This document shows positions 6,812-55,096 of a stretch of 64,000 nucleotides of DNA, in pieces. The stretch spans positions 12,955 to 76,954 of the forward strand of contig VXYV01000037.1 of NCBI GenBank assembly GCA_009845835.1. The letters are read 5' to 3'. Every line of letters starts with the position of its first letter. Positions within the stretch are counted from its first letter, which is position 1. The stretch comes from Gammaproteobacteria bacterium. GTDB lineage: Bacteria; Pseudomonadota; Gammaproteobacteria; Pseudomonadales; Azotimanducaceae. The notes below the pieces were generated by a model. That model did not search any database. It was not told the DNA's origin and saw nothing but the letters and a program-made list of their open reading frames with translations. Both the position numbers and the translations under genes were made by a program.

Positions 6812-7952
6812 GATCTAAGCGGACGTATTCTTCTTCATCTTCCAGGAAACTAATGATTGCCTGACGAAAATTTTGATTACTGATGTAGTGAGCGGAATAG
6901 GTTGTAACAGGTTCGTACCCTCGTGAAATCTTGTAGTTTCCCTGAGCCCCACCCTGGATTGTCTTAAGACCGTGATGGATAGCGTATTCGATCGCTTGAT
7001 AGTAGCATAGTTCGAAGTGTAAGAATGGGTGATGTTCGATACACCCCCAGTTTCGACCGAAAAGTACATCTTGACCGATGAAATGTAAGGAACCGGCAAC
7101 GTAGTTCTTACTTGACTTTGCCAAAATCAACAAAATCTGCTCCTGCATCATTTCGCAGATCAAACTAAAAAACCTTCTGTTCAGATACGGTCTACCCCAT
7201 TTTCTTGCACTCGTATCTAAGTAACACTGGTAAAACACGTCCCAATGGCTTTCCAAAACATCTGAACCAGTTAACCACTCAACAGTCAAAGCTTCATTTA
7301 CCGCGAGTTTACGTTCCCGTCGAATGTTTTTTCTCTTTTTGGTGGAGAGATTCGACAGGAAATCATTAAAGGAAGAATACCCTCTATTCTGCCAATGTAA
7401 TTGCGTGTCCGTCCGTTTCAAAAATTGTGTACTAGCACAGACCCGATTGCATTGTGTTCTGTCCAAAAAAGTCAAGTGCGCTGAACTTAGCGCATTCTGT
7501 TCGACGATTTCTACTATTGTTTTCGTAAAGAGTGATTCCAATTCTTGTTTTCGATACTCTTCAGCTAGCAGAATTCGCTTGTCGGCGACGGGTGTAAAAG
7601 GCACGCACACTTGTAGTTTTGGGTAGTAATTACCACCCGCATTCTCCCATGCTCCAGCCCACTGGTAGTCGAAGACAAATTCCCCCATTGAGTGTGCCTT
7701 GAGGTACATTGGCATCACACCAACTGTCCGATTCGAAACACGCAATTCAAGGTGCATAGGTTGCCAGCCAGTTGTATTCATTACGCATCCACTATTTTCT
7801 AGTGCATGGAGGAATCGATAGTCGATAAACGGAGAAACCGACTGAGTAATACAACGGTTCCAGTTGTGCATACCAATGTTTTCGATACTCCTCTGAACTT
7901 CGATTTTTGCAGAAGATATATCAATCTGTCGTTTACCTTGGGTATCGCTCAA
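6768..7952 (-). CDS. FemAB-like / GNAT-fold protein (COG3146, DUF482 family)
   Basis: 394 aa. The N-terminal FIDYRFLHALENSGCV..TGWQPMHL and central KKRKNIRRERK plus the C-terminal half are characteristic of the PF04339 family. Confidence 0.75.
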   Translation of the reverse strand: MSDTQGKRQIDISSAKIEVQRSIENIGMHNWNRCITQSVSPFIDYRFLHALENSGCVMNTTGWQPMHLELRVSNRTVGVMPMYLKAHSMGEFVFDYQWAGAWENAGGNYYPKLQVCVPFTPVADKRILLAEEYRKQELESLFTKTIVEIVEQNALSSAHLTFLDRTQCNRVCASTQFLKRTDTQLHWQNRGYSSFNDFLSNLSTKKRKNIRRERKLAVNEALTVEWLTGSDVLESHWDVFYQCYLDTSARKWGRPYLNRRFFSLICEMMQEQILLILAKSSKNYVAGSLHFIGQDVLFGRNWGCIEHHPFLHFELCYYQAIEYAIHHGLKTIQGGAQGNYKISRGYEPVTTYSAHYISNQNFRQAIISFLEDEEEYVRLDHDFLVQSLPFKQDY

Positions 7953-7986
7953 GATATGTCACTCGATTTTTTAGTTACTCTTCAAC

Positions 7987-8769
7987 TCAAACATTTTCCA
8001 TCTTTTTGTACACCATGACTCCGATACCCAAAAGTACAATGGTATAAACGATTAACACACTTATGTGTAAAAATATGTTCACGCTGTTCGAAGCATCTAT
8101 TGCACTGAGTGCCAATTGAACAGAATGAAATGAAGGTAGATAGTGAGCTACACTTTGCAACCAAGGCGGAAAATAGGTGTAAGGAACGATGATTCCACTC
8201 AGAAACAACATTGGCAAATAAATCAGATTCACAATTGCATGAGCAGAATTTGCGCTGACTGCGCAACCCATTACAAGACCTAACATACAAAATGGTAACG
8301 AACAGAACATTTGAGTAACGATGAGAACAAAAATTTGTTGGATGCCCAGATCTGCCGACCCGAAAATTAACGAAATACCAACAAGTAAAGATGTGATCAG
8401 GGCACAAAACACCATCGCCATGAAGGCTTTTGCTAGAAAATGAATGTAAACTGGTAGGGGGCTGACTCGTTTTAGCAACAACCAACCTTGTCCCCGTTCG
8501 ATCGCGATGTATACACCAAATCCAAAAAGCGAGGTCCCAATCATTCCGATAGAACTTGCAGCGACCAACCAATAATGATCGGCGCGAATTTCTTGCACAT
8601 CTATGTCGATGAGTACACCACAGACGATGTAGACAATTAACGGGAATGACAAGATTGAACTAGAAAATGCGGGTAGTCGCAAGCACTTTATTACTTCTAG
8701 TTTCGATTCTGTGTAGAGAATACGTAATAATTGAACGAGGCTATACCCCATCGCACCTTTAGTTGTCAT
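7987..8769 (-). CDS. ABC-2 type exporter permease
   Basis: About six TM helices directly downstream of an ABC ATPase. I chose the start at the internal Met (MTTKGAMGYS...). The track start at 8829 would overlap the ATPase by 71 nt. Confidence 0.75.
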   Translation of the reverse strand: MTTKGAMGYSLVQLLRILYTESKLEVIKCLRLPAFSSSILSFPLIVYIVCGVLIDIDVQEIRADHYWLVAASSIGMIGTSLFGFGVYIAIERGQGWLLLKRVSPLPVYIHFLAKAFMAMVFCALITSLLVGISLIFGSADLGIQQIFVLIVTQMFCSLPFCMLGLVMGCAVSANSAHAIVNLIYLPMLFLSGIIVPYTYFPPWLQSVAHYLPSFHSVQLALSAIDASNSVNIFLHISVLIVYTIVLLGIGVMVYKKMENV

Positions 8770-48328: not shown

Positions 48329-48772
48329 AGGTTTTTCGTACCTGTAGCGAATAACATAACTGTTGGAGAATAAATCGGACCACGATCGACGGTTTTTGTC
48401 AAACCAAATCCAGTAATATCCAAGTCCAAGAGTAAGTATTGAGAGCAGTTCTCCACAAAATCGAAAAAGAGCACTTCTTAATGTGAAGGTGGAAGAAGAT
48501 TTAAGTCGTAGCTTCCATGCCAACATGCCGATTGTTTGTCCACGATGGATCCAGAAAAAACAGAAAAATACAAAAGTCTCGACTAATAATATGCTCTGAA
48601 GTAAAGCACCTGTTACTTCACGGCCATTAACAAGCACGATAAGAGAAGTTGTAACAGCCCATAATGCAACTACAATCAACGTGTCATAACACAGTGCAAA
48701 AATTCGAAATCGAAACGGCGATGGACCCATTTCAAGAAGAGTGGTTTCTCGTTGTTTTTTAGGTTTCATCAC
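48269..48772 (-). CDS. RDD-family membrane protein (small)
   Basis: 167 aa containing RIFALCYDTLIV and GQTIGMLAWKLRL, with three TM helices. It converges on lptG. Confidence 0.7.
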   Translation of the reverse strand: MMKPKKQRETTLLEMGPSPFRFRIFALCYDTLIVVALWAVTTSLIVLVNGREVTGALLQSILLVETFVFFCFFWIHRGQTIGMLAWKLRLKSSSTFTLRSALFRFCGELLSILTLGLGYYWIWFDKNRRSWSDLFSNSYVIRYRYEKPSIDLPQQVNATGKNDKKRK

Positions 48773-48824
48773 ACGGTGTAGTATATCGCTGTCGCGCGGA
48801 CGAACGGACTATAATTTCTGTTGC

Positions 48825-48911
48825 GCCTGAGTGGCGAAATTGGTATACGCGCCAGACTCAAAATCTGGTGGTGGCAACACCGTGAGAGTTCGAGTCTCTC
48901 CTCAGGCACCA
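48825..48911 (+). tRNA. tRNA-Leu (anticodon CAA)
   Basis: The hand fold has acceptor GCCTGAG/CTCAGGC, anticodon stem CCAGA/TCTGG with loop CTCAAAA and a long variable arm (type II). The T arm is GAGAG-TTCGAGT-CTCTC with an encoded CCA. Length is 87 nt. Confidence 0.92.
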
Positions 48912-49675
48912 TATCGTACTCGTCTTTTCGATTGTCGATAACGTTCCGTTGGAGGTTCTTCGCATAACAGCATACCATAGTTTTGGAGTAGGTTATCAGT
49001 TTGTTTCCAGTTTGGTAGTTGTTCGGCTAGTAGCTCATAGAATGCGCGACTATGATTTCGATGTATGAAATGGCAGAGTTCATGCATGATCACTAGGTCT
49101 ATAGCTTCCATTGGAACTTTGACTAGATGAGAATTTAACTTTACTTTACGATCACGGTTACAGCTCCCCCAAAGGCTAGACATGAATCGATGCGACCATG
49201 GCGGTACTGCGTCGACAAAATTAGCTTTTTCGCACATTTGAACAATCCGTTCCTGAAAAATCGCGGTTGCATGAATTTTGTACCAAGCAAATATCACTCC
49301 TTTCAACGAAACGTCAAGAGGTTTCTTTATCGTTAAGCGGTTATTTTGATACGAAGGTTGGATTCGATTACTCGTCCTCACCGTGACGCGAACCGGTTCA
49401 GACAAAACCAAAATCGTACAACCATCTTCATAGTTCAATGGGTAACAGATTTGTGGGTCGGCTTGTGCCACTTGCATCAGTTTGTGGATTCTGTTTTCGT
49501 TATTCTTCACGAGGTTGAACAGTTCTTTGCTAGAAACTTGGGTTGGTGTAGTAACAAACAAAACTTTTTCGGGGTGATAGTGAAAACTCGCTCTACTTTT
49601 TCGAGCCCGGCTTGTTCTTTGTTCAACCCTTATCTTTTGTCCAAGAACGGACATATAGAGACAAGGTAATTTCAC
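48902..49675 (-). CDS. YgjP-like metal-dependent hydrolase (DUF45, SprT-like)
   Basis: The HExxH motif sits in the DUF45 context: DLVIMHELCHFIHRNHSRAFY. The start may be Met 8 (49654). Confidence 0.75.
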   Translation of the reverse strand: MKLPCLYMSVLGQKIRVEQRTSRARKSRASFHYHPEKVLFVTTPTQVSSKELFNLVKNNENRIHKLMQVAQADPQICYPLNYEDGCTILVLSEPVRVTVRTSNRIQPSYQNNRLTIKKPLDVSLKGVIFAWYKIHATAIFQERIVQMCEKANFVDAVPPWSHRFMSSLWGSCNRDRKVKLNSHLVKVPMEAIDLVIMHELCHFIHRNHSRAFYELLAEQLPNWKQTDNLLQNYGMLLCEEPPTERYRQSKRRVRYGA

Positions 49676-50326: not shown

Positions 50327-51871
50327 CTACCAGACGAGGATCTCAAGTTCGCGCGCAACTTGTTCGAATTCATCCAATTTCACCGATTGTCTGAAATCAA
50401 GAACATTCTCTTCATTGATATAGTCGATTGCTTGTTCGCAATTGATGTAGTCCGAATCCGGCTGGTCACTTGGCTTTGATTGTGGTCTTGAATGTTCGTC
50501 GTTGAGTTGTTTTGCTCGAATGGCGTTCATATTAAATGCACCGCAAATTCGATTACAGAGATGGTCGACAAGCCATTGTAAATCGTATTGATAACCTAGT
50601 TCATCAAATTGAACTAATCCTTGTATACTTTCTTTGAGTACATTAATCAATTCCTTTAGCGGTTCGTTCGAGTGTTCAATCGTTCCACCAAATTGAATGG
50701 CACTTTGATTAAATGAAACAATGTCGGTCCATGGATATTCTTGACGCAAATACGATTGTATTTCTGTAGTATGTGGGTGTTCAAGATTAAATACAACTGT
50801 TGATAAACTCGCCGTGAAATCCCCAAAATGTGCGGCAATGGCAAACATAACCTTGGATAGATTCTCCGCAATCACATGTGTATACCGAGCATCGGGAACT
50901 TCGTCTAAGGAAACTCCCAAAGCATTCCCTATTTCCATGAGTTTATCGTAGGTTTTGCGATCAACATCTTCCGGCGAGAACAGCAACTTTTCGAGTCCAA
51001 ATTCAGCACATTTTTTGTTCATCCAAATTGAATATAGAAGCGATTCGGAATCGTTGGCTGAGACACGATCAAATTGATTTTGGTTAATTATTCCTTGTTT
51101 GTTTGTTGCCCAAATGATTTGTGTGTTTTTGTTACGGGCAATTATTCTCTCAATACTTGGTCGAGGTGTATTAGGATATAAGCTTTCTTCGTCTACGTAC
51201 AGACTTCCTCTATATAGAGATCTAAATTCTTCGTACACTCCATCGAAATGCAATGTATTAGTCTGAACTCCACAGGCGTCTGTAAACGCGGCGAAGGCAG
51301 TAAACGATTCTGCGTGACAAGCTTTATTAAGTTCAGGAGATAAAAAGGGTACTTCAGTAAACAGACACTCTTCTTGCTTTAACGCTTCAAGAACAAGATC
51401 GCGATCTGTCTGTGGCTGTTTAAAAATTCGTTCATTGGACATTGTTTCAGGAATTGTGATCCACGTCGAACCGCGATGCCCGACGTATTCACGGGCGTCA
51501 AAATACTCTTCCAAAGTTTGCCAGCATTCGTTGGTGAAAATTGACAAATCTGAATTTTCAAAACTGTTGCGTGTAATTATGTGACTATCGGGACACACGC
51601 GGAGAACGTCGAAGCGATTTATATTCGGTTCAGTGCGATTGTTTATGACTTTGGATGTTTGTGGTGATTTACTCGTATTTTCTAATTTCGTTTCTAAGTG
51701 TTCTATTTCGGGTACAGATTCTGCGATATTTGAACTCTTATCGGACTTTAGCAAAATTATTCCAAAAACGCTAACCAAGAATAAGCCAAGGAATACACTA
51801 GCTAACATCCCGATCATGTACAGACCTTGAACTTTCTTCACGAGTCGTCTGCTCCATGGAAGGTAGAGCAA
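50327..51871 (-). CDS. Hypothetical membrane-anchored/secreted protein (orphan)
   Basis: 514 aa with an N-terminal anchor (MIGMLASVFLGLFLVSVFGIILL). It is Cys-containing and acidic, with no motif I recognise. The start is 51871 or Met 19 (51817). Confidence 0.65.
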   Translation of the reverse strand: MLYLPWSRRLVKKVQGLYMIGMLASVFLGLFLVSVFGIILLKSDKSSNIAESVPEIEHLETKLENTSKSPQTSKVINNRTEPNINRFDVLRVCPDSHIITRNSFENSDLSIFTNECWQTLEEYFDAREYVGHRGSTWITIPETMSNERIFKQPQTDRDLVLEALKQEECLFTEVPFLSPELNKACHAESFTAFAAFTDACGVQTNTLHFDGVYEEFRSLYRGSLYVDEESLYPNTPRPSIERIIARNKNTQIIWATNKQGIINQNQFDRVSANDSESLLYSIWMNKKCAEFGLEKLLFSPEDVDRKTYDKLMEIGNALGVSLDEVPDARYTHVIAENLSKVMFAIAAHFGDFTASLSTVVFNLEHPHTTEIQSYLRQEYPWTDIVSFNQSAIQFGGTIEHSNEPLKELINVLKESIQGLVQFDELGYQYDLQWLVDHLCNRICGAFNMNAIRAKQLNDEHSRPQSKPSDQPDSDYINCEQAIDYINEENVLDFRQSVKLDEFEQVARELEILVW

Positions 51872-52926
51872 GGTTCAATTTTTTGCTTGATATCGTAATT
51901 AGGATTCGGAGGACTGCCTAATAATTCATTCGCACCTAAATTCCCTAGTTCATCTTCAAAGTAAGCTTCCAACTGAGCGTCAGAGTAATCGTCATCTTGG
52001 CTAATCTCTTTTGACTTTATCAAATTATCTCGTAAATCACTAATTAGTTCAAGAAGTTCGGTTTGATCTTGAAAAAGATATCTAGGTTCTATTGCATGTG
52101 CTGAATCTATTAGGTTGTAAGTTTCTTCTTGTACCCAGATTTCCTCGCTAAACTTTTGGTCAAAAGGGACATCAACCTCGTTACCATCTTTATCTACAAA
52201 GATTCTAAAAGCTTTGTTAACTTGGTGTTCCTCAACATGTAGCAATTCGTGGAGAATTGATTGATAGACAGTAGTGTAGAGATCGTGTGGATAATCCATA
52301 CCCGAAAGCTTGATTCGGACTGGAATAGTACCTTCTATTGGCAGCATGTCAGCGTTTTTACCGTAAAGTTGGTCTGCCGTAATTTCAAAATCCAGAGTCT
52401 TGTTTATATCGATTTCACTGACAACACAATCCGATATACGTTTCACAAATTTGTTTAAGGCTTTTCGTTTTTCCTTTTGAATATAGTTATAGGTTTCAAT
52501 TGAAAGAAACCCAGCGGGTTTAGACATATCGTCAGATGCTTCGTTGAGGTCAAGATGTTTGGGGCCCCAATTAGAGTAATTTGTTGGATTTTGTACGGCA
52601 TCCAAGATATCCATGAGATTGTCCATCGCTGATGACATCTTTTCGTCGATTTCTTCGCATGTAGCCAAACAACTATCTGCAAAACAAAAAGACTGAAACT
52701 CGAACAAGTTAACATCTCCCCACATTTGAAGAATGTTGTCGTAAGGAAATTCTTCGCCTTCACACAAAGAAGTTTTGAATGCAATTACAGAGGTATCTAC
52801 CGAAATGGATGACGAGTATACCGACGCACTTCTTAGTACGAAACAAGTTAATATAAGAACTAGCCCATTAATCGTTAGCACACGGGCATGCGAGATTGAT
52901 TTGGTCATGAGTGTAACGTTTGTCAA
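51838..52926 (-). CDS. Hypothetical secreted protein with HExxH motif (possible zinc metallopeptidase)
   Basis: 362 aa with an N-terminal anchor (VLTINGLVLILTCFVL) and a Cys-rich N-domain. It has a single HELLH (YQSILHELLHVEEH) and an acidic C-terminal tail. Confidence 0.6.
   Translation of the reverse strand: MTNVTLMTKSISHARVLTINGLVLILTCFVLRSASVYSSSISVDTSVIAFKTSLCEGEEFPYDNILQMWGDVNLFEFQSFCFADSCLATCEEIDEKMSSAMDNLMDILDAVQNPTNYSNWGPKHLDLNEASDDMSKPAGFLSIETYNYIQKEKRKALNKFVKRISDCVVSEIDINKTLDFEITADQLYGKNADMLPIEGTIPVRIKLSGMDYPHDLYTTVYQSILHELLHVEEHQVNKAFRIFVDKDGNEVDVPFDQKFSEEIWVQEETYNLIDSAHAIEPRYLFQDQTELLELISDLRDNLIKSKEISQDDDYSDAQLEAYFEDELGNLGANELLGSPPNPNYDIKQKIEPCSTFHGADDS

Positions 52927-52995: not shown

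Positions 52996-55096
<2,101 letters not shown>

What the first reader, a model, noticed from the sequence alone, without database searches (positions are those of the whole stretch)
50327..52926. Pair of orphan secreted/anchored proteins, one with a lone HELLH motif
Two consecutive minus-strand ORFs (362 aa and 514 aa) each begin with a hydrophobic anchor. Both contain several cysteines, consistent with a periplasmic or extracellular location, and have acidic tails. They match nothing I recognise. The upstream one has a single HExxH (YQSILHELLHVEEH, with further acidic residues 20-35 aa downstream that could supply a third zinc ligand). This suggests a novel zincin-like peptidase, with the downstream protein as a possible partner, substrate or inhibitor. 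They are the least housekeeping-like genes in the window, wedged between a Ddn-family gene and queA.
Basis: partly seen in the sequence, partly recalled or inferred. Interest (0 to 1): 0.6.

Follow-up and report, generated by a model that had tools for sequence, protein, structure and literature searches.

The report
Multi-copy zinc-protease and partner cassette
The two "orphan" genes are one copy of an undescribed two-gene cassette found in many copies only in one genus of marine-sponge bacteria: an exported protein with a conserved zinc-protease motif, followed by a membrane-anchored, cysteine-rich helical partner of unknown fold.

Summary
Two overlapping minus-strand genes lie between a Ddn-family gene and queA: A (51838-52926, HELLH) and B (50327-51841, or 51871 as the longest ORF). 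Neither matches Pfam, NCBIfam or the PDB.

They are not singletons.
- B belongs to a family with eight conserved cysteines and an N-terminal membrane anchor. This genome has about 30 copies. The family occurs in 18 of 29 genomes of the genus and in 0 of 399 other Gammaproteobacteria.
- A is a divergent member of a roughly 350-aa exported family. That family almost always lies directly upstream of a B gene: 14 of 16 loci here, and 28-29 of 31 loci from other genomes of the genus.
- Across 36 A-family members, E227 and H230 are invariant, H226 is present in 29, and E262 is kept in at least 90%. This is a gluzincin-type HExxH...E signature.
- A and B diverge together (24 pairs, r = 0.82).
- The cassette changes position between relatives. 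In five relatives an SGNH-like gene sits where this copy lies.

The closest relative is a Pseudomonadales/HTCC2089 MAG from the sponge Rhopaloeides odorabile.

Best reading: an exported zincin-like peptidase with a cognate anchored partner, most likely a guard or inhibitor. Foldase and substrate roles remain open. The fold of A could not be modelled, and activity is untested.

The parts
51838..52926 (-). Gene A: exported HExxH protein. The longest ORF is 362 aa. The likely start is the ATG at 52908, giving 356 aa.
   Evidence: ORF. Public gene call of 356 aa. It belongs to a roughly 350-aa family found directly upstream of B-family genes. dN/dS is 0.17.
52834..52881 (-). A's N-terminal hydrophobic segment, V16-L31 (VLTINGLVLILTCFVL), followed by RSASVYSSS. 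It is a Sec signal peptide or a signal anchor.
   Evidence: Paralogs in the same genome carry classic signals such as KIIVVLLILLGVSTYA|LD. No signal-peptide predictor was available, so this is a heuristic reading.
52237..52251 (-). HELLH (H226 E227 L L H230): the putative zinc-binding and catalytic motif.
   Evidence: Sequence. E227 and H230 are invariant and H226 is present in 29 of 36 family members.
52141..52143 (-). E262 (in FSEEIW): candidate third zinc ligand, 32 residues after H230.
   Evidence: It aligns with the E of the family motif E-[VIL]-E-A and is at least 90% conserved in alignment A6.
51838..51841 (-). GTGA overlap: A's TGA stop and B's GTG start share bases. This is a translational-coupling junction.
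   Evidence: The other cassettes have gaps of -78 to +72 nt between the stop-to-stop frames. By called start codons, six copies in this genome have spacers of 5-24 nt.
50327..51841 (-). Gene B: membrane-anchored, all-alpha protein with eight conserved cysteines. It is 504 aa from the GTG start. The longest ORF reaches 51871 (514 aa).
   Evidence: Family alignments A2 and A4. AlphaFold model with pLDDT 74 and pTM 0.71, all-alpha. dN/dS is 0.28.
51749..51823 (-). B's N-terminal transmembrane signal anchor, about L17-L41, preceded by KK.
   Evidence: the family's hydrophobic run is 19-28 residues (median 21) with no AxA site. AlphaFold models helix 8-42.
50330..51616 (-). B's extracytoplasmic helical domain, residues 86-514. 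It carries conserved C93, C116, C169, C185, C200, C288, C439 and C478, and the conserved C-terminal motif LDEFEQVARELEILVW.
   Evidence: No fold or sequence match in the PDB or BFVD. Two paralogs fuse this domain to a TonB C-terminal domain, which places it in the periplasm.

Best explanation
The two genes form one operon and are one copy of a lineage-specific, multi-copy 'A-B cassette'.

A is exported by the Sec pathway (shown only as an N-terminal signal-like segment). It is a member of a new family carrying a gluzincin-type zinc-peptidase signature: HExxH, followed about 30 residues later by a conserved Glu. It is inferred to be a zinc metallopeptidase acting outside the cytoplasm.

B is translated from the same mRNA, with its start overlapping A's stop. 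It is held in the inner membrane by an uncleaved N-terminal anchor. Behind a variable linker it presents a helical domain to the periplasm, which is inferred to be disulfide-stapled.

Each A has its own B and the two diverge in step, so B is inferred to bind its own A. The most likely role is a guard, or immunity-like inhibitor, that keeps the protease harmless in or at the producer's envelope. B genes kept without A would then protect against related proteases from neighbours.

Shown: the gene pair, the families, motif conservation, strict gene order, co-divergence, restriction to one genus, movement between sites, and purifying selection.

Inferred: zinc binding, proteolysis, A-B binding and inhibition.
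For: **Cassette**
- 14 of 16 A-family loci in this genome are followed at once by a B gene. The other two lie at contig edges.
- 28-29 of 31 loci from other genomes of the genus show the same order.
- Junctions overlap or are short.
- 24 distinct pairs co-diverge: r = 0.82, Mantel p <= 2e-4.

**A belongs to the family**
- Same size, same position and an N-terminal export segment.
- Four matching cysteines and a matching C-terminal NP-Y...C motif.
- hhalign scores are E 6e-6, 3e-8 and 0.005, all colinear.
- The family profile scores A at 1.6e-60.

**Zincin signature**
- E227 and H230 are invariant, H226 is present in 29 of 36, and E262 is kept in at least 90%.
- The only weak Pfam hits with a known function are zincin families: Zincin_1, DUF2268 and SprT-like.

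**Location outside the cytoplasm**
- Signal or anchor segments.
- Even numbers of conserved cysteines: 4 in A and 8 in B.
- TonB_C fusions of the B domain.

**Guard or immunity-like role**
- B occurs without A in 9 genomes: B in 18 of 29, A in 10 of 29.
- Tandem arrays contain only B.
- Decayed A copies sit next to intact B copies: C25 and C53 here, and an HEFVH remnant in L010.

**Both genes are under selection**
- dN/dS is 0.17 (A) and 0.28 (B).
Against: - No structural support for A. The AlphaFold model had pLDDT 32.6, and no PDB or Pfam match was found.
- With no fold, the HExxH...E motif alone does not prove a zincin.
- Seven of 36 family members lack the first His (E four times, T, M, D). 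Some copies may therefore be inactive.
- B is far larger (about 450-500 aa) than typical protease inhibitors or immunity proteins.
- A carries only a Sec-type signal and no known delivery domain. The T6SS sheath gene is absent from this genome. How A could reach another cell's periplasm is therefore unexplained.
- Co-divergence is also expected from simple co-inheritance of adjacent genes.
Confidence: 0.4

Rival explanations
1. B is a private, membrane-anchored steric chaperone (foldase) for its own A, as the lipase-specific foldase Lif is for lipase. B folds or activates the exported protease in the periplasm before release.
For: - The architecture and gene order match. The enzyme gene comes first, and the partner follows with tight coupling.
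- The partner has an N-terminal membrane anchor, a variable Pro/Ser/Thr-rich linker and an all-alpha periplasmic domain.
- Pairing is one-to-one and the partners co-diverge.
- One secretin gene is present, so a type II pathway may exist for release.
Against: - Nine genomes and many loci keep intact B without any A. A dedicated foldase should decay once its client is lost.
- B has no sequence or fold similarity to Lif or to any solved structure.
- Dozens of copies per genome is unlike known enzyme-foldase pairs.
Confidence: 0.2
2. B is the working product and A is its dedicated processing protease (a sheddase). A cuts its own B in the variable linker and frees the cysteine-rich domain from the membrane.
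For: - B is the more widespread and better preserved partner: 18 against 10 of 29 genomes.
- The region between B's anchor and its first conserved cysteine is hypervariable. It could carry a cognate cleavage site.
- Pairs co-diverge.
- A decays more often than B. Among copies in this genome not cut off by a contig end, 3 of 13 A copies are decayed against 2 of 29 B copies.
Against: - No conserved cleavage motif is visible in the linker.
- B-only copies would need another protease or no processing.
- Two B paralogs are fused to TonB_C. This suggests the domain works while tethered.
Confidence: 0.2
3. The HExxH motif is not catalytic. A and B are two subunits of a variable envelope or surface structure, a contingency or antigenic-variation type family used in contact with the sponge host. 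The motif serves only as a structural metal or helix feature.
For: - Seven of 36 members lack the first His.
- There are many fast-diverging copies in small symbiont genomes, with mean pairwise distance 0.75 for A and 0.65 for B.
- Copies often lie at contig ends and next to IS elements.
Against: - The Glu of HExxH, the second His and the downstream Glu are the most conserved non-cysteine residues of a family that is otherwise about 25% identical. That pattern is what an active site gives.
Confidence: 0.12
4. The pair is a recent, non-functional insertion or a pair of spurious ORFs.
For: - GC is low compared with the rest of the genome.
- The pair replaces another gene at this site in relatives.
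Against: - The frames stay open across 45-52% amino-acid divergence.
- dN/dS is 0.17-0.28, like the flanking housekeeping genes.
- The conserved family features include cysteines and motifs.
Confidence: 0.02

Closest known systems
Gluzincin metallopeptidases (MEROPS clan MA(E): HExxH plus a downstream Glu as third zinc ligand, as in thermolysin-like and minimal gluzincin families)
   Same: - HExxH with invariant Glu and second His.
- A nearly invariant Glu about 30 residues downstream.
- A hydrophobic context suited to a helix.
- An extracytoplasmic protein.
   Different: - No significant sequence match to any Pfam or NCBIfam family or PDB chain.
- The fold is unverified.
- The family has its own four-cysteine pattern and a C-terminal helical tail.
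PVC-metallopeptidase / DUF4157 / eCIS_core (PF13699), signature HExxHxxQ...E (Zhang et al. 2012, PMC3482391)
   Same: Most A-family members read HExxHxxQ followed by E-x-E-A. This is close to the published signature and to the HE..HvvQQ...lEreAD seen in 30 domains fetched here.
   Different: - The PF13699 model does not hit any A locus.
- Profile-profile alignment covers only 17 motif columns, at probability 40%.
- The window's A has E where the signature has Q.
- A-family proteins carry Sec-type signals, stand alone and pair with B. They are not N-terminal modules of contractile-injection toxins.
Lipase with its lipase-specific foldase (LipA-Lif of Pseudomonas and Burkholderia; from general knowledge)
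   Same: An exported enzyme gene is followed by a coupled gene for an N-terminally anchored, linker-bearing, all-alpha periplasmic partner specific to that enzyme.
   Different: - The enzyme is not a lipase.
- B has no similarity to Lif.
- B has eight conserved cysteines.
- There are dozens of copies.
- B often occurs without A.
Toxin-immunity cassettes with orphan immunity arrays (polymorphic toxin systems, PMC3482391; from general knowledge also periplasmic helical-repeat immunity proteins of T6SS lipases, and serralysin-Inh pairs)
   Same: - The enzyme or toxin gene comes first and the partner second, with overlapping codons.
- Pairs co-diversify rapidly.
- Partner-only loci and arrays occur.
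- Decayed enzyme genes lie next to intact partners.
- Cassettes differ at the same chromosomal site between relatives.
   Different: - There is no delivery domain or dedicated secretion system. T6SS is absent and A has only a Sec-type signal.
- The partner is very large and deeply conserved.
- No toxicity data exist.

Membership tests
Zincin / gluzincin metallopeptidases | HExxH motif conserved across homologs | tested here: met
   E227 and H230 are invariant and H226 is present in 29 of 36 members. The motif is also conserved in P0002.
Zincin / gluzincin metallopeptidases | Third zinc ligand: a Glu some 18-70 residues C-terminal to HExxH | tested here: met
   E262, 32 residues after H230, is conserved in at least 90% of alignment A6. 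The family motif is E-[VIL]-E-A. This is evidence at sequence level only.
Zincin / gluzincin metallopeptidases | Zincin fold: a beta-sheet, the active-site helix and a ligand-bearing helix | tested here: inconclusive
There are no PDB or Pfam matches. The only function-bearing weak hits were sub-threshold: Zincin_1, DUF2268 and SprT-like.
Zincin / gluzincin metallopeptidases | Zinc-dependent proteolytic activity | not testable with these tools
   This needs biochemistry.
PVC-metallopeptidase / eCIS_core (PF13699) | Significant match to the family profile | tested here: not met
   PF13699 at E<=10 hits no A-family locus in this genome. hhalign of A6 against 30 PF13699 domains aligns only 17 columns, at probability 40%.
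PVC-metallopeptidase / eCIS_core (PF13699) | HExxHxxQ...E signature | tested here: inconclusive
   The signature is present in most A-family members, but the window's A reads HELLHVEE.
PVC-metallopeptidase / eCIS_core (PF13699) | N-terminal module of larger toxin proteins linked to contractile injection systems | tested here: not met
   A-family proteins are about 350 aa, carry a Sec-type signal, have the motif at residues 210-250, and have no further domain. The genome was not searched for injection-system loci.
Lipase-foldase (Lif) type enzyme-chaperone pairs | The partner resembles Lif in sequence or fold | tested here: not met
   B or its paralogs have no Pfam hit. There is no Foldseek match in the PDB: best E 0.08, TM about 0.1.
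Lipase-foldase (Lif) type enzyme-chaperone pairs | Enzyme gene followed by a coupled gene for an anchored all-alpha periplasmic partner | tested here: met
Polymorphic toxin-immunity cassettes | Toxin gene followed directly by its cognate immunity gene, with orphan immunity genes elsewhere | tested here: met
   B-only loci, arrays and genomes are. That B acts as 'immunity' is an analogy, not a result.
Polymorphic toxin-immunity cassettes | N-terminal trafficking domain or a dedicated delivery system (T5SS, T6SS, T7SS, Rhs and the like) | tested here: not met
   A has only a Sec-type N-terminus. The T6SS sheath family PF05943 is absent from this 96%-complete genome. Other systems were not searched.
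Polymorphic toxin-immunity cassettes | Toxicity of A that is neutralised by its cognate B | not testable with these tools
   This needs expression tests in a laboratory strain.

The most novel reading that the evidence does not exclude
The A-B cassette is a previously undescribed conflict or interface system of sponge symbionts. It pairs a new zincin family, exported by Sec, with a membrane-anchored guard of a new eight-cysteine all-alpha fold. The system has expanded to 15-30 co-diversifying copies in the reduced genomes of one HTCC2089 genus. It is swapped between chromosomal hot spots and sets compatibility between symbiont strains, or between symbiont and host matrix. On this reading, the B-only genomes are strains that keep only the protection.
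Probability: 0.3. Interest if true: 0.75.

Novelty: new variant of a known kind. Interest (0 to 1): 0.6.

Why it matters
**A large share of a small genome.** Roughly 45 genes (about 16 A and about 30 B) in a 2.5-Mb symbiont genome belong to two families that no database describes. That is a large investment for a reduced genome, so it should reflect something important for life inside a sponge.

**Possible biological role.** If A is an active protease with a private anchored partner, the cassette is either a new enzyme-guard (or enzyme-foldase) design or a new type of competition system that works without a known delivery machine.

**Structural interest.** B's model is moderately confident (pTM 0.71) and matches no solved or viral structure, so it is a candidate new fold.

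**Practical point.** Gene-by-gene annotation calls these genes 'hypothetical singletons'. Only the comparison of neighbours showed the system.

Tried and rejected
- **Family scans.** Pfam and NCBIfam scans of A, B and their paralogs gave no significant family. The exception was TonB_C on two B paralogs.
- **Exhaustive search for A.** HMMER with A plus P0002 against 1.84 billion representative proteins found only P0002 and one spurious repeat protein. A alone is too divergent to reach its own family.
- **Word-based search.** A search with the family profile found only 7 proteins.
- **Structure of A.** AlphaFold from a 2-row alignment was unusable. This used the last structure job before the family was recognised, so the deeper alignment A6 could not be folded.
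- **Fold of B.** Foldseek against the PDB and BFVD gave nothing below E 0.06. PDB sequence searches with the A and B profiles gave nothing.
- **Membership of PF13699.** Tested and rejected.
- **Legionella-type effector idea.** An early idea, prompted by the acidic tails, was a Legionella-type injected effector. I dropped it. The organism is a Pseudomonadales/HTCC2089 sponge symbiont, and both proteins have export signals and conserved cysteine pairs.
- **tRNA-Leu island idea.** This is rejected for YgjP and Ddn, which are syntenic in five relatives. Only A-B is new at this site.
- **Promoter and terminator scan.** The result was at background level.
- **Broad alignment for a genome scan.** The search for related loci with the broad alignment failed because it had no conserved block.
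- **An artefact of mine.** The tgt dN/dS value came from an out-of-frame coordinate that I chose. It should be ignored.
Full report
**1. Observation**

One search confirms two consecutive minus-strand ORFs. A is at 51838-52926 (362 aa) and B is at 50327-51871 (514 aa).
- A contains a single HExxH: HELLH at residues 226-230, nt 52237-52251.
- Both begin with a hydrophobic segment.
- A has 7 cysteines and B has 9. Both are strongly acidic, with net charge -36 and -29, and both have acidic tails.
- A's TGA stop overlaps a GTG that public gene calls use as B's start (GTGA at 51838-51841). With that start B has a KK-then-hydrophobic N-terminus like its relatives.
- Neither protein matches Pfam or NCBIfam.
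- The flanks are a Ddn-type gene (PF04075, 1.4e-41) and queA.
- GC is 38.5% (A) and 40.1% (B). The mean for long ORFs of the genome is 44.6% with sd 2.4, so these lie in the lowest 1% and 4%.

**2. The genes are real**
- A sister genome (G028) carries the same pair in the same place at 97-99% identity.
- dN/dS between the two copies is 0.17 for A (5 substitutions) and 0.28 for B (33 substitutions). The neighbouring genes give 0.14-0.24.
- A third copy, 52% (A) and 45% (B) identical, lies in a related species (L001). That species' ClpB is 86% identical to this genome's.

**3. B is a member of a large family restricted to one genus**
- B alone finds 19 places in its own genome and matches in 18 of 29 genomes of the genus. 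It finds none in 32 other genera of the same family and order.
- A 22-sequence profile finds none in 399 other Gammaproteobacteria from 320 genera.
- A local HMM search finds about 30 B loci in this 2.5-Mb genome. Many lie at contig ends, so the family probably breaks the assembly.
- Members share several features:
  - an N-terminal hydrophobic run of 19-28 residues with no signal-peptidase site;
  - a variable Ser/Thr/Pro-rich linker;
  - eight conserved cysteines (C93, C116, C169, C185, C200, C288, C439, C478);
  - motifs such as IFxDPxxD...PEC and AAxLGD;
  - a conserved C-terminal FE-VA--L-VY.
- AlphaFold with this alignment gives an all-alpha model with pLDDT 74 and pTM 0.71.
- That model has no match in the PDB (best E 0.08, TM about 0.1) or in BFVD. 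The profile finds no PDB sequence.
- Two paralogs carry a C-terminal TonB_C domain (1e-13 to 1e-14). That places the B domain in the periplasm.

**4. A is not an orphan either**

A with its one close homolog finds nothing else in 1.84 billion representative proteins. The genes upstream of the B paralogs gave the answer. They encode a family of about 350 aa with the following shared features:
- a signal peptide, for example KIIVVLLILLGVSTYA|LD;
- four conserved cysteines;
- HExxH at the same relative position;
- a downstream E-x-E-A;
- a PP[YFL] motif;
- a C-terminal N-Y...C.

A shares all of these. The statistical support is modest but consistent:
- hhalign of A plus P0002 against the family gives E 6e-6.
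- The most A-like paralog against the family gives E 3e-8.
- A against that paralog gives E 0.005, colinear from residue 141 to the C-terminal cysteine.
- The family profile A6, whose 23 rows include A and P0002, scores the A locus at 1.6e-60.

**5. The motif**

In 36 distinct members from about 10 genomes, with mean pairwise identity about 25%:
- the Glu and the second His of HExxH are invariant;
- the first His is present in 29 members and is replaced by E four times, and by T, M and D once each;
- the Glu equivalent to E262 is kept in at least 90%.

Most members read HExxHxxQ...E-x-E-A. That recalls the 'HExxHxxQ-E' signature of the PVC-metallopeptidase (PMC3482391). Membership of that family failed. 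PF13699 hits no A locus, and profile-profile alignment with 30 fetched domains covers only the motif, at probability 40%. No other family or PDB chain matches, and only sub-threshold zincin hits appear. The AlphaFold model of A was unusable: it came from a two-row alignment made before the family was found, and had pLDDT 32.6. The fold is therefore unverified.

**6. The pair is a unit**
- In this genome 14 of 16 A loci are followed directly by a B gene on the same strand. The other two are cut by contig ends.
- In 31 loci from other genomes 28-29 show the same order.
- Junctions overlap or are short. Gaps between stop-to-stop frames run from -78 to +72 nt, and six copies here have spacers of 5-24 nt by start codon.
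- Over 24 distinct pairs, the A distances track the distances of their own B: r = 0.82, Mantel p <= 2e-4.
- The reverse does not hold.
  - B occurs in 18 of 29 genomes and A in only 10, with two different profiles.
  - B-only loci and tandem B arrays are real.
- A decays more often than B.
  - Here C25 has multiple stops, C53 has a frameshift and C117 holds a remnant, and the first two lie next to an intact B.
  - In G007 a 108-aa HEFVH remnant precedes an intact B.

**7. The cassette moves**
- In five relatives the order is YgjP, Ddn, an SGNH/GDSL-like gene, then queA. In this genome and G028 the SGNH-like gene is absent and A-B lies in its place. YgjP and Ddn are therefore native, and only A-B is new here.
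- In L001 the window-type cassette lies between a CMAS-type methyltransferase gene and an NfeD/Band-7 pair, and is flanked by IS elements. In this genome that same site holds two other, divergent A-B cassettes (contig C68 end and C62 start).

**8. Organism**

The near-identical relative is 'Gammaproteobacteria bacterium RHO3_bin_3'. Its authors list it as Pseudomonadales; HTCC2089; g__bin55, from the sponge Rhopaloeides odorabile (PMC8163846, supplementary file 9). Other columns of that stored table did not look consistent with this genome, so I use only the name, size and taxonomy. The T6SS sheath gene is absent and one secretin gene is present. The ORF upstream of the secretin looks like GspC, but I did not verify that.

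**9. Mechanism**

Shown:
- an operon of an exported HExxH...E protein and an anchored, cysteine-rich helical protein;
- multi-copy, co-diverging and mobile cassettes;
- both genes under purifying selection.

Inferred:
- A is a zinc peptidase.
- B binds its own A.

I rank a guard or inhibitor (immunity-like) role first, because B persists without A and next to decayed A. A Lif-like foldase role or a substrate role for B fit the architecture about as well. They differ only in predictions that need co-folding or bench work.

The main weaknesses are:
- there is no fold for A;
- no route is known by which a Sec-exported protease could act on neighbouring cells;

**10. Novelty**

Both families are undescribed, and B has no detectable structural relative. 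The general kind, an exported zincin with a cognate partner gene, is known. I therefore file this as a new variant of a known kind, with a fair chance that it is a distinct system.

Noticed in passing
G000 contig C74:1974-5349 (outside the window): Two tandem B-family paralogs carry a C-terminal TonB_C domain (Pfam 1.4e-14 and 3.2e-13). An MMPL/RND-type transporter gene follows them. They look like TonB-like proteins whose periplasmic spacer is the B domain.
   Followed up: partly
window 48772-48902, compared with L018-L023: Between the RDD gene and YgjP the window holds only tRNA-Leu(CAA). Five relatives carry 3-9 kb of extra DNA there. This is a second variable spot in the same neighbourhood, and its content was not examined.
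   Followed up: no
L001:6927-7100 and 7060-7992: The related species' copy of A has its N-terminal anchor in a different frame from the rest of the gene, an apparent 1-nt frameshift near CEGEEFPYD. It lies between IS elements. This is either a real pseudogene or an indel error in a 2.2-Mb long contig.
   Followed up: partly
L017 (G028 contig C13) 2808-10549; also G000 C110, L002 and L003-L005: The closest paralog of B has no A upstream. Instead it follows an N6-adenine-type DNA methyltransferase gene (NPPY motif) and a conserved 83-aa membrane protein with two cysteines. In L017 a 536-aa protein with a thioredoxin WCGPC motif lies downstream, followed by another B paralog.
   Followed up: no
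window 48902-49675 (-): A YgjP-like (PF01863, 4.6e-38) HExxH metallopeptidase gene lies two genes away from A. Its ORF end overlaps tRNA-Leu by 10 nt on the other strand. It is syntenic in relatives and unrelated to the A family.
   Followed up: partly
window 52996-55096: The longest ORFs of queA and tgt overlap by 110 nt (53903-54012). The real tgt start is probably further downstream.
   Followed up: no
genus-wide: Except for G027 (3.8 Mb), A-B cassettes are found in the smaller genomes of the genus (1.9-2.8 Mb). Most genomes of 3.2-3.8 Mb have B only or neither. The expansion seems tied to the genome-reduced lineage.
   Followed up: partly
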